From: Escherichia coli | Lineage (GTDB): Bacteria > Pseudomonadota > Gammaproteobacteria > Enterobacterales > Enterobacteriaceae | Strand: one strand, 5' to 3' | NCBI RefSeq assembly: GCF_029227855.1 | Contig: NZ_CP074356.1 | Length of the DNA stretch: 64,000 nucleotides | In this document: piece by piece, positions 44,997 to 45,240 of the stretch | Layout of the letters: each line of letters starts with the position of its first letter | Numbering within the stretch: position 1 is the stretch's first letter | Notes under the pieces: model-generated | Told to the model about the DNA's origin: nothing | Databases searched by the model: none | The model's input: only the letters and a program-made list of their open reading frames with translations | Program-made: the position numbers and the translations under genes

Positions 44997-45240
44997 ATTG
45001 CCGGATGCGGCGTAAACGCCTTATCCAGCCTACGTTCGGCAACGGTTGTAGGCATGATAAGACGCGCAAGCGTCGCATCAGGCATCGTGCACCGATTGCC
45101 GGATGCGGCGTAAATGCCTTATCCGGCCTACGTTCGGCAACGGCTGTAGGCATGATAAGACGCGCAAGCGTCGCATCAGGCATCGTGCACCGATTGCCGG
45201 ATGCGGCGTGAACGCCTTATCCGGCCTACAGTCAGCAACG
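44997..45240. repeat. Tandem array (about 2.5 copies of a roughly 99 bp unit) of REP/BIME elements between aceA and aceK
   Basis: Unit attgccggatgcggcgtaaacgccttatccggcctacgttcggcaacggttgtaggcatgataagacgcgcaagcgtcgcatcaggcatcgtgcaccg repeated head-to-tail with point differences. Confidence 0.85.

What the first reader, a model, noticed from the sequence alone, without database searches (positions are those of the whole stretch)
44997..45240. Tandemly amplified REP/BIME unit in the aceA-aceK spacer
A roughly 99 bp composite of two REP palindromes is repeated about 2.5 times head-to-tail with point variants between copies. Such BIME arrays bind gyrase/IHF and act as mRNA stabilisers or partial terminators; here the array probably contributes to the polarity between aceA and aceK. 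Copy number at this site is known to vary between strains.
Basis: partly seen in the sequence, partly recalled or inferred. Interest (0 to 1): 0.3.

Follow-up and report, generated by a model that had tools for sequence, protein, structure and literature searches.

The report
BIME-2 repeat array between aceA and aceK
This is an ordinary, already-described E. coli repeat: five small palindromes in a head-to-tail array inside the aceBAK operon, which differs in copy number between strains, is a DNA gyrase hot spot in K-12, and probably shields the aceB-aceA part of the mRNA from degradation.

Summary
Window 44997-45245 is a 98-bp unit repeated 2.5 times (94% match). It consists of five REP palindromes in alternating orientation (Y, Z2, Y, Z2, Y) joined by 14-nt linkers, and it lies in the 280-bp spacer between aceA and aceK, both on the minus strand. 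That architecture is a BIME-2, not the IHF-binding BIME-1: no Z1, no long linker and no IHF consensus.

Copy number varies. In 5,426 complete E. coli genomes I found spacers with 0, 1, 2, 3, 4, 5 and 7 REPs. About 47% carry this 5-REP form, about 20% the K-12 3-REP form, 719 genomes have none, and 11 have 7.

Published data for the K-12 allele show 8 ciprofloxacin-trapped gyrase cleavage sites in this element (third of 263 BIME-2 intervals). They also show an RNA 3' end 4 nt past the last REP (equivalent to window 44996).

The main drop in aceK expression has another cause: an intrinsic terminator 367 nt inside aceK (the AceK-int 3' end, window 44604), together with weak translation.

In 77 other Enterobacteriaceae species the spacer always holds a stable stem-loop. 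In about a third it is a plain hairpin; in most of the rest it is a genus-specific REP pair or another palindromic element.

Verdict: real, already known, low interest.

The parts
44997..45245 (.). Whole tandem array: 2.5 units of 98 bp (a BIME-2)
   Evidence: TRF: period 98, 2.5 copies, 94% match, score 449. Three in-register copies.
45000..45033 (+). Y-type REP number 1, nearest aceK. It carries the variants TAAACG and CCAGCC.
   Evidence: 2 mismatches to the Y consensus. K-12 has the same variant copy.
45034..45047 (.). 14-nt tail-to-tail linker (GTTCGGCAACGGTT), corresponding to the short 'S' linker of BIME-2
   Evidence: Sequence between Y1 and Z2a. The name S follows the classification in PMC3333891. 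Identity to the canonical S motif was not checked.
45048..45083 (-). Z2-type REP a
   Evidence: 0 mismatches to the Z2 consensus.
45084..45097 (.). 14-nt head-to-head linker (ATCGTGCACCGATT), the counterpart of the 'l' linker of naRNA units
   Evidence: It lies inside the RF02564 matches.
45098..45131 (+). Y-type REP number 2 (variant TAAATG)
   Evidence: 2 mismatches to the Y consensus. This unit is absent from K-12 and duplicated in strain 3359.
45132..45145 (.). Second tail-to-tail linker (GTTCGGCAACGGCT)
45146..45181 (-). Z2-type REP b
   Evidence: 0 mismatches.
45182..45195 (.). Second head-to-head linker (ATCGTGCACCGATT)
45196..45229 (+). Y-type REP number 3, nearest aceA, a perfect match to the consensus
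   Evidence: 0 mismatches.
45230..45251 (.). Degenerate S-like tail (AGTCAGCAACGGTTGT) plus the last spacer bases. In the mRNA it forms a weak 6-bp hairpin starting at the last base of the aceA stop codon.
   Evidence: The third TRF copy extends to 45245. Hairpin seen in the MFE structure.
45149..45226 (-). naRNA4-like module (inverted Y, linker, Z2) in the aceBAK mRNA sense
   Evidence: RF02564: 85.6 bits against a gathering score of 59.5. 90-95% identical to REP325 units.
45051..45128 (-). Second naRNA4-like module
   Evidence: RF02564: 81.8 bits.
44996..44996 (-). Position equivalent to the MG1655 Term-seq RNA 3' end 4,218,571. It lies 4 nt past the foot of Y1.
   Evidence: Supplement of PMC7815308. 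Exact 30-nt mapping onto the window. Measured in K-12, inferred for this allele.
44969..44996 (-). aceK translation-initiation region: SD GAGGG at 44978-44982 and ATG at 44969-44971
   Evidence: Sequence. Predicted pairing probability of the SD is 0.78-0.80 whatever the copy number.
45252..45254 (-). aceA stop codon (TAA), 22 nt upstream of the first REP in mRNA order
   Evidence: ORF 45252-46571. Sequence.
44604..44688 (-). Context: AceK-int sRNA region inside aceK. It ends at an intrinsic terminator (hairpin 44633-44612 plus T-run), which is the main premature 3' end downstream of the array.
   Evidence: Terminator-like site. MG1655 annotation b4830. Mapping. Term-seq and intrinsic terminator score 5.9.

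Best explanation
The feature is a BIME-2: an array of Y and Z2 repetitive extragenic palindromes in alternating orientation. Here there are five REPs (2.5 units of 98 bp) inside the aceBAK operon, between aceA and aceK.

How it most likely works:
(1) DNA level. The Y/Z2 pairs form a transcription-independent strong gyrase site. This is shown for the 3-REP K-12 allele and inferred here from near-identical units.
(2) RNA level. The array is transcribed as part of the aceBAK mRNA and folds into a row of very stable stem-loops. Most transcripts end at the intrinsic terminator 367 nt inside aceK or are cut there. 3'-to-5' exonucleases then trim back to the REP stem-loops, leaving a stable aceB-aceA message that ends just past the last REP. 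The 3' end is shown in K-12; the trimming route is inferred. This adds to, but is not the main cause of, the large excess of AceA over AceK.
(3) Evolution. The array took over a position that holds a stable intercistronic stem-loop throughout the Enterobacteriaceae.
(4) Copy-number change. The array gains and loses whole 98-bp units by recombination or slippage between the direct repeats. This is inferred from alleles that are exact unit duplications, deletions or recombinants.
For: Identity:
- Y and Z2 consensus matches in alternating orientation, with 0 expected by chance.
- Tandem period of 98 bp.
- 14-nt linkers and no IHF site.
- The definition of BIME-2 in PMC3333891.

Gyrase: Topo-Seq table DS3 of PMC6379681 lists the aceA-aceK BIME-2 with 8 Cfx, 2 RifCfx and 2 Oxo cleavage sites in 131 bp. 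That is third of 263 BIME-2 intervals by Cfx count. The 78 BIME-1 intervals have 3 Cfx sites in total.

RNA structure: the mRNA-sense spacer folds at -143.4 kcal/mol, z = -7.1 against dinucleotide shuffles.

3' end: MG1655 Term-seq places an end at 4,218,571, equivalent to window 44996 and 4 nt past the last REP. General support that REP and other stem-loops define 3' ends by blocking PNPase and RNase II comes from PMC6061677.

Terminator inside aceK.

Conserved stem-loop, in 77 species spacers:
- Short forms have a median MFE of -26.4 kcal/mol for about 49 nt.
- Long forms are REP pairs or other palindromes with median z = -4.6.
- aceK-internal control segments have z = 0.

Unit-wise change:
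- Rosetta2-DE3 equals BL21 plus an exact copy of unit 2, with identical flanks.
- Strain 3359 equals this window's allele plus a copy of unit 2.
- The K-12 unit is a recombinant of this window's units 1 and 2.
Against: - No experiment was done on this 5-REP allele. The gyrase and 3'-end data are from 3-REP K-12 strains.
- The REP-foot 3' end is weak (score 1,115, against 56,453 for the aceK-internal terminator listed a few rows later in the same part of the table). It could equally come from attenuation at the REP rather than from exonuclease trimming.
- 13% of E. coli genomes have no REP here, and others have one to seven. Any REP-specific or copy-number-specific function is therefore dispensable or only quantitative.
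- z-scores of the short non-REP hairpins against shuffles are modest (median -2.0), because their C-rich/G-rich composition itself drives folding. MAFFT could not register the stems, so no formal covariation test was possible.
- From memory only (Chung et al. 1993, not held): the aceA-to-aceK downshift was attributed to poor translation and to termination within aceK, not to the intergenic region.
Confidence: 0.75

Rival explanations
1. Neutral selfish repeat. The array is a by-product of REP proliferation (the REP-associated transposase TnpA-REP, slippage) at a permissive intergenic site. It has no locus-specific function, and gyrase cleavage and the RNA 3' end are incidental.
For: Spacer alleles with 0, 1, 2, 3, 4, 5 and 7 REPs coexist in E. 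coli. 719 of 5,426 genomes have none. Copy number changed even within the BL21 laboratory lineage. Variable BIME-2 copy number between strains is a general property (PMC3333891).
Against: A stable stem-loop occupies this position in all 77 species examined, and REP-bearing forms have lost the ancestral hairpin. This suggests replacement of a needed structure rather than a pure addition. The locus is among the three most gyrase-cleaved BIME-2 intervals in K-12, while most of the 263 have zero sites. An RNA 3' end sits at the REP foot.
Confidence: 0.2
2. Partial transcription terminator or attenuator. RNA polymerase stops within or just after the array (for example Rho-dependent attenuation at BIMEs, Espeli et al. 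2001), and this is the main cause of polarity between aceA and aceK.
For: A Term-seq 3' end lies 4 nt past the last REP. BIME-associated attenuation is described in the literature (cited in PMC6061677).
Against: The array has no hairpin followed by a T-run. The dominant premature end is the intrinsic terminator at +367 of aceK, about 50 times stronger in the same part of the table. The BL21(DE3) transcriptome, from a 5-REP strain, places premature termination in aceK. Adams et al. classify the aceK-int end as intrinsic.
Confidence: 0.15
3. Source of nucleoid-associated RNA. The two complete inverted-Y/linker/Z2 modules are released from aceBAK mRNA as naRNA4-like RNAs, which bind HU and bridge cruciform DNA, as reported for REP325.
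For: RF02564 scores of 85.6 and 81.8 bits exceed the gathering score of 59.5, on the transcribed strand. The module order is the same as in REP325, with 90-95% identity over 73-75 nt. PMC4550694 reports that HU-dependent condensation needs an RNA with two hairpins such as Y and Z2.
Against: The Rfam model also hits two other BIMEs in this 64-kb window, so it detects Y/Z2 pairs in general. The linkers differ from those of REP325. No processing or HU-binding data exist for this locus. The operon is repressed under most conditions.
Confidence: 0.1
4. IHF-binding BIME-1 (RIB/RIP element), as implied by the first reader's 'gyrase/IHF'.
For: None found here beyond the presence of a Y REP.
Against: The partner REP is Z2, not Z1 (Z1 pattern not found). 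The linkers are 14 nt rather than the long L linker. No IHF consensus WATCAANNNNTTR with up to 1 mismatch lies in 44972-45251. BIME-1 elements occur as single copies.
Confidence: 0.01

Closest known systems
BIME-2 family of E. coli bacterial interspersed mosaic elements (Gilson/Bachellier classification; summarised in Ton-Hoang et al. 2012, PMC3333891)
   Same: Y and Z2 REPs in alternating orientation, short linkers, tandem amplification, strain-variable copy number, and in vivo gyrase cleavage at this same locus in K-12.
   Different: Nothing essential. This allele has one 98-bp unit more than the K-12 reference allele, plus a few point variants in Y1 and Y2.
REP325 / naRNA4 (RF02564; Qian et al. 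2015, PMC4550694)
   Same: The same module in the transcript (inverted Y, head-to-head linker, Z2), repeated in tandem. 90-95% identity over about 75 nt. Passes the Rfam gathering score.
   Different: Different locus (yjdM-yjdN). REP325 has 6 units with a period of 100 bp, a 13-nt head linker AACGGTGCCGACT and a 17-nt tail linker AAATTCCCGCACCCTCC; here both linkers are 14 nt. HU binding and nucleoid effects were shown only for REP325.
REP mRNA stabilisers in operons (malE-malF paradigm, Newbury et al. 1987; Rho-dependent 3' ends protected by stem-loops, Dar and Sorek 2018, PMC6061677)
   Same: An intercistronic REP stem-loop downstream of a highly expressed gene and upstream of a weakly expressed one. 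An RNA 3' end lies at the REP foot in K-12.
   Different: No deletion or half-life experiment for this locus was available to me. The strongest attenuation signal is a separate intrinsic terminator inside aceK.
BIME-1 / RIB-RIP elements (Boccard and Prentki 1993)
   Same: Contains a Y REP and lies in a transcribed intergenic region.
   Different: No Z1, no L linker, no IHF site, and it is tandemly amplified. Not a member.

Membership tests
BIME-2 | Built from y-type and z2-type REPs | tested here: met
   Three Y matches (2, 2 and 0 mismatches) and two Z2 matches (0 mismatches), with 0 expected by chance.
BIME-2 | REP and inverted REP alternate in orientation | tested here: met
   Y on the + strand at 45000, 45098 and 45196. 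Z2 on the - strand at 45048 and 45146.
BIME-2 | Short linker between the REPs (S), with short flanking motifs (s, l or r), and not the long L linker | tested here: met
   All internal linkers are 14 nt. Whether they equal the canonical named S and l motifs was not checked against a reference list.
BIME-2 | Occurs as multiple tandem copies, with number variable between strains | tested here: met
   2.5 units here. 0.5, 1.5, 2.5 and 3.5 units in other E. coli genomes.
BIME-2 | Bound and cleaved by DNA gyrase in vivo, preferentially in Y | not testable with these tools
   Published Topo-Seq for the K-12 W3110 allele: 8 Cfx, 2 RifCfx and 2 Oxo sites in 131 bp. Inferred for this allele.
BIME-1 (IHF-binding RIB/RIP) | z1 + y pair separated by a long L linker carrying an IHF site; single copy | tested here: not met
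   No Z1 match. 14-nt linkers. No WATCAANNNNTTR with up to 1 mismatch in 44972-45251. The element is tandemly repeated.
Rfam RF02564 naRNA4 | Covariance-model score at or above the curated gathering score | tested here: met
   85.6 and 81.8 bits against 59.5, on the - strand. The model also matches other BIMEs in the window at 11752-11822 and 15981-16051.
Rfam RF02564 naRNA4 | A discrete HU-binding RNA that condenses the nucleoid | not testable with these tools
   Shown only for REP325 (PMC4550694).
Intrinsic (Rho-independent) terminator | GC-rich hairpin followed directly by a U-run | tested here: not met
   No such site in 44972-45251. The nearest are inside aceK at 44633-44612 and 44687-44672.
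REP mRNA 3'-end stabiliser | Transcribed within or after an operon and folds into stable stem-loops in the RNA | tested here: met
   It lies between two same-strand genes of the aceBAK operon. MFE -143.4 kcal/mol, z = -7.1.
REP mRNA 3'-end stabiliser | A steady-state RNA 3' end at the foot of the REP | tested here: inconclusive
   Present in MG1655 Term-seq at 4,218,571, equivalent to window 44996. It is weak, comes from the 3-REP allele, and its origin (trimming or termination) is unknown.
REP mRNA 3'-end stabiliser | Removing the REP shortens the half-life of the upstream mRNA | not testable with these tools
   Needs an experiment.

The most novel reading that the evidence does not exclude
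The array could act as a heritable, fast-mutating rheostat for the glyoxylate-shunt branch point. Each added Y/Z2 unit would add a gyrase site and an exonuclease barrier, and perhaps a released naRNA4-like HU-binding RNA. Strains with 0, 1, 3, 5 or 7 REPs would then differ in aceB-aceA mRNA stability and in the AceA:AceK ratio. This could contribute to known strain differences in acetate metabolism (for example BL21 with 5 REPs against K-12 with 3).
Probability: 0.08. Interest if true: 0.45.

Novelty: already known. Interest (0 to 1): 0.15.

Why it matters
It matters little as a discovery. REPs in the aceA-aceK spacer, the BIME-2 class, its variable copy number and gyrase cleavage at this locus are all on record.

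The useful outcomes are corrections and context:
- The element is the gyrase-binding, IHF-less BIME class.
- The main aceA-to-aceK attenuation signal is a separate intrinsic terminator inside aceK (AceK-int), not the array.
- A stable intercistronic stem-loop is the conserved feature across Enterobacteriaceae, and REPs are one interchangeable way of supplying it.
- The set of natural alleles (0 to 7 REPs, plus an 11-REP array in E. albertii) is a ready-made series for testing whether REP number affects mRNA stability or supercoiling.

Tried and rejected
1. IHF binding. The consensus scan found 61 matches in the window (52 expected by chance) and none in the spacer. Rejected.
2. Intrinsic terminator within the array. 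None found.
3. Alignment-based covariation test of the basal hairpin. MAFFT did not register the stems, so any count would have been meaningless. I replaced it with per-sequence folding against dinucleotide shuffles and aceK-internal controls. The short hairpins are very stable in absolute terms but reach only z of about -2, because composition carries the signal.
4. Copy number altering aceK ribosome-binding-site accessibility. Predicted SD pairing is 0.78-0.80 for 0.5 to 3.5 units. Rejected as a copy-number effect. Only the unrelated REP-less haplotype differs (0.41).
5. Chung et al. 1993 (PMC204903) is not held, so its content is used only through PMC5435950 and from memory. The Dar and Sorek supplement is not held.
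6. Exact allele counts for the 0.5-, 1.5- and 2.5-unit forms. BLAST joins overlapping pieces across tandem repeats, so coverage does not separate them. I used evenly spaced samples (59 chromosomal rows, 30 rows), plus two exact counts obtained with purpose-built queries: a 6.5-unit synthetic query for arrays of 3.5 units or more and a REP-less-specific query.
7. Two spacer extractions were discarded as artefacts of my script: L030 (length 0) and L043 (the 281 nt include the 3' end of aceA; the true spacer is of the ~100-nt REP-pair type).
8. The rule that a REP close to a stop codon down-regulates the upstream gene (Liang et al. 2015, recalled from memory). My search did not retrieve the paper. 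The first REP here starts 22 nt after the aceA stop, so I make no claim.

Full report
OBSERVATION. The reported repeat is real. Tandem Repeats Finder finds one array at window 44997-45245 with period 98, 2.5 copies, 94% matches and no indels. An independent seed-and-extend search gives three in-register copies spaced 98 and 98 bp apart. The period is 98 bp rather than 'roughly 99'. The array lies in a 280-bp spacer (44972-45251) between two minus-strand ORFs, 43235-44971 and 45252-46571. RefSeq annotates the homologous positions as aceK and aceA in thousands of E. coli genomes, and many of those genomes are 100% identical to the window over 851 bp. The window is therefore E. coli, and the array is transcribed as part of the aceBAK operon from the minus strand.

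ANATOMY. Searches with the Y-type and Z2-type REP consensus sequences place five REPs.
- Y lies on the plus strand at 45000-45033, 45098-45131 and 45196-45229, with 2, 2 and 0 mismatches.
- Z2 lies on the minus strand at 45048-45083 and 45146-45181, with 0 mismatches.
- In both searches 0 matches are expected by chance.
The REPs alternate in orientation. They are joined by 14-nt tail-to-tail linkers (GTTCGGCAACGG[T/C]T) and 14-nt head-to-head linkers (ATCGTGCACCGATT). A degenerate copy of the tail linker follows the last Y. There is no Z1 REP. No IHF consensus with up to one mismatch lies in the spacer. No hairpin followed by a T-run occurs within the array. In mRNA sense the spacer folds at -143.4 kcal/mol, against -111 +/- 4.5 for dinucleotide shuffles (z = -7.1).

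WHAT IT IS. Ton-Hoang et al. (PMC3333891) summarise the classification. BIME-1 consists of z1 and y as a single copy, with a long L linker that often carries an IHF site. BIME-2 consists of z2 and y in multiple tandem copies, with a short S linker and s, l or r flanks, and its copy number at a locus varies between strains. Every sequence-level criterion of BIME-2 is met here and those of BIME-1 are not.

COPY NUMBER AND ALLELES. I compared the locus across 5,426 complete E. coli genomes. In an evenly spaced sample of 59 chromosomal hits the locus lengths fall into classes, and I sequenced one representative of each:
- Y-Z2-Y-Z2-Y, 280-bp spacer, this window: 28 of 59.
- Y-Z2-Y, 182-183 bp, as in K-12 and O55/O157: 12 of 59.
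- A single Y, 85 bp: 2 of 59.
- A chimeric Y/Z2 REP plus Y, 124 bp: 6 of 59.
- A chimeric REP plus Y-Z2-Y, 215 or 228 bp, some with a 7-nt head linker: 3 of 59.
- A REP-less 48-bp spacer of unrelated sequence: 8 of 59.
A query specific for the REP-less form gives an exact count of 719 of 5,426 genomes. A synthetic 6.5-unit query, designed so that only arrays of 3.5 units or more reach full coverage, brings up 11 genomes with 3.5 units (7 REPs) and none with more.

The changes occur in whole units:
- Strain 3359 equals this window's allele plus a duplicate of unit 2.
- Rosetta2-DE3 equals BL21 plus a duplicate of its unit 2, with identical flanks. This is either a gain within a laboratory lineage or an assembly error.
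- The single K-12 unit is a recombinant of this window's units 1 and 2.
That pattern is what unequal recombination or replication slippage between 98-bp direct repeats would produce. A contribution from the REP-associated transposase is possible but was not tested.

DNA-LEVEL FUNCTION. The Topo-Seq study of Sutormin et al. (PMC6379681) found gyrase cleavage sites strongly over-represented in BIME-2, mostly in Y REPs, and not dependent on transcription. Its supplementary table DS3 lists the aceA-aceK BIME-2 of K-12 W3110 (131 bp, the 3-REP allele) with 8 ciprofloxacin, 2 rifampicin+ciprofloxacin, 0 microcin and 2 oxolinic-acid cleavage sites. By ciprofloxacin count it ranks third of 263 BIME-2 intervals, after tldD-yhdP (35) and eco-mqo (11), and most intervals have none. 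The 78 BIME-1 intervals have three ciprofloxacin sites in total. Gyrase action at this locus is therefore shown for K-12. For this allele, which has three Y REPs instead of two, it is inferred.

RNA-LEVEL FUNCTION. Term-seq data for MG1655 (Adams et al., PMC7815308, supplementary file 1) list three 3' ends close together in one part of the table:
- 4,218,571 ('orphan', score 1,115).
- 4,218,832 (inside aceK, score 1,109).
- 4,218,963 (aceK-int, score 56,453; intrinsic-terminator score 5.9).
Using the MG1655 record and exact 30-nt matches, these map to window 44996, 44735 and 44604 on the minus strand.

The first end lies 4 nt past the foot of the last (aceK-proximal) Y REP. That is where an exonuclease-resistant 3' end would be expected (general mechanism: Dar and Sorek, PMC6061677). 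The third coincides exactly with the terminator-like hairpin plus T-run that the consensus scan found inside aceK at 44633-44612. It is also the 3' end of the annotated sRNA AceK-int, whose 5' end is an RNase E site.

A tiling-array study of BL21(DE3), a 5-REP strain, reports aceK signal far below aceA and premature termination within aceK. It cites protein ratios aceB:aceA:aceK of about 0.3:1:0.003.

My reading is that most of the polarity is set by the aceK-internal terminator and by weak aceK translation. The array then supplies the stable 3' structure at which decay of the truncated transcripts stops, which preserves aceB-aceA mRNA. The 3' end is observed; the route to it is inferred. Predicted pairing of the aceK Shine-Dalgarno sequence is the same (0.78-0.80) for alleles with 0.5 to 3.5 units, so copy number is not predicted to affect aceK translation initiation.

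COMPARATIVE EVIDENCE. A scan of one genome per species with the AceK N-terminus returned 80 loci. I extracted 79 aceA-aceK spacers and analysed 77.
- Thirty-one spacers are 47-64 nt long. They consist of a GC-rich hairpin directly after the aceA stop (for example CCCCCTCTCCCC / GGGGAGAGGG, though other genera use different stem sequences), followed by the Shine-Dalgarno sequence. Their median MFE is -26.4 kcal/mol.
- Citrobacter, Salmonella enterica subsp. arizonae and diarizonae, Kluyvera and some Klebsiella have spacers of about 91-107 nt, made of an inverted pair of their own REP type.
- Several Enterobacter have a larger palindrome built on the CCCTCTCCCC motif.
- The other Escherichia species all carry Y/Z2 arrays: 2 REPs in sp. 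MOD1-EC7003 (a truncated Y plus a Z2), 4 in sp. E1V33, 6 in E. whittamii and 11 in E. albertii (542 bp).
- Long spacers have a median z of -4.6, and 93% fall below -2. aceK-internal control segments have a median z of 0.
The E. coli REP-less allele has the basal hairpin-plus-AAGGAG architecture. The conserved feature is therefore a stable intercistronic stem-loop, and REPs and BIMEs have repeatedly replaced the plain hairpin. This supports a structural RNA (or DNA) role for whatever occupies the site. It argues against any need for REPs specifically or for a particular copy number.

naRNA4. Rfam model RF02564 matches the two complete inverted-Y/linker/Z2 modules on the transcribed strand at 85.6 and 81.8 bits, against a gathering score of 59.5. 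REP325, the source of naRNA4, has six such modules with a 100-bp period and different linkers. The modules here are 90-95% identical to them over 73-75 nt. The same model also matches BIMEs at 11752-11822 and 15981-16051 in this window, so it recognises Y/Z2 pairs in general. Whether aceBAK mRNA yields HU-binding fragments is open and, on present evidence, unlikely to be specific to this locus.

VERDICT. The feature is a textbook BIME-2 and is already documented at this locus. It is partly wrong or overstated: there is no IHF site, the array is not a terminator, and it is not the main source of polarity. Novelty: already known. Interest: low (0.15).

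Noticed in passing
window 44604-44688 (- strand), inside aceK: The AceK-int sRNA region. A GC hairpin (44633-44612) plus T-run ends exactly at the position equivalent to the MG1655 Term-seq 3' end 4,218,963. The 5' end (44688) is a reported RNase E site. This intrinsic terminator 367 nt into aceK is probably the 'premature termination within aceK' of the older literature.
   Followed up: yes
window 44735 (- strand): Equivalent of a further weak MG1655 Term-seq 3' end (4,218,832) inside aceK, after GGCATTTTTA. Not examined further.
   Followed up: no
L006:273-320 (E. coli GN02461), and 719 of 5,426 E. coli genomes: A REP-less 48-bp aceA-aceK spacer of unrelated sequence. 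It has a plain hairpin, a stronger AAGGAG Shine-Dalgarno and a less structured predicted initiation region (0.41 paired against 0.79). Its SD tail TAAGGAGAGGCG is shared with Phytobacter massiliensis and Citrobacter amalonaticus, whereas every other Escherichia species examined carries the BIME haplotype. Whether it is an old polymorphism or an import is unresolved.
   Followed up: partly
L010:959-1500 (Escherichia albertii NBRC 107761): The same spacer holds an 11-REP Y/Z2 array of 542 bp with a period of about 92 bp, the largest seen. E. whittamii (L009) has 6 REPs with a different 15-nt tail linker (AAATGTGGTAGACAC).
   Followed up: partly
L087 (Rosetta2-DE3) against L093 (BL21 TaKaRa); also BL21-RIPL, hit H69: Two BL21-derivative assemblies carry 3.5 units where BL21 carries 2.5: an exact duplicate of unit 2 with identical flanks. 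This is either a 98-bp gain within a laboratory lineage or a long-read assembly artefact. The two assemblies have consecutive accession numbers.
   Followed up: partly
L089:~347-375 (E. coli BS-04): A 29-bp T-rich insertion (GTGGTTGTTTTTTTTTTTGTAGTTGGGC) sits in the tail linker of an otherwise K-12-like 3-REP allele. HS-01 looks similar. It may be a sequencing artefact.
   Followed up: no
window 11701-11822, 15929-16051 and 6405-6438: Other REP/BIME elements in the window. A Y + Z2 pair lies at 11701-11784, with a further partial REP after it. RF02564 (naRNA4) also passes its gathering score at 11752-11822 (78.7 bits) and 15981-16051 (59.7 bits).
   Followed up: partly
L029, L040, L057, L073 (Enterobacter species), spacer upstream of position 1501: The aceA-aceK spacer of several Enterobacter species holds a palindromic element of about 110 nt built from CCCTCTCCCC/GGGGAGAGGG arms (MFE down to -81 kcal/mol). 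It looks like an expansion of the basal hairpin or a different small repeat family.
   Followed up: no
window 50100-55110 (-), 27481-27677 (+), 10479-10602 (-), 25437-25586 (+): Ordinary landmarks from the Rfam scan: an rRNA operon (5S, 23S, tRNA, 16S), a lysine riboswitch, and the sRNA families STnc490 and STnc430.
   Followed up: no
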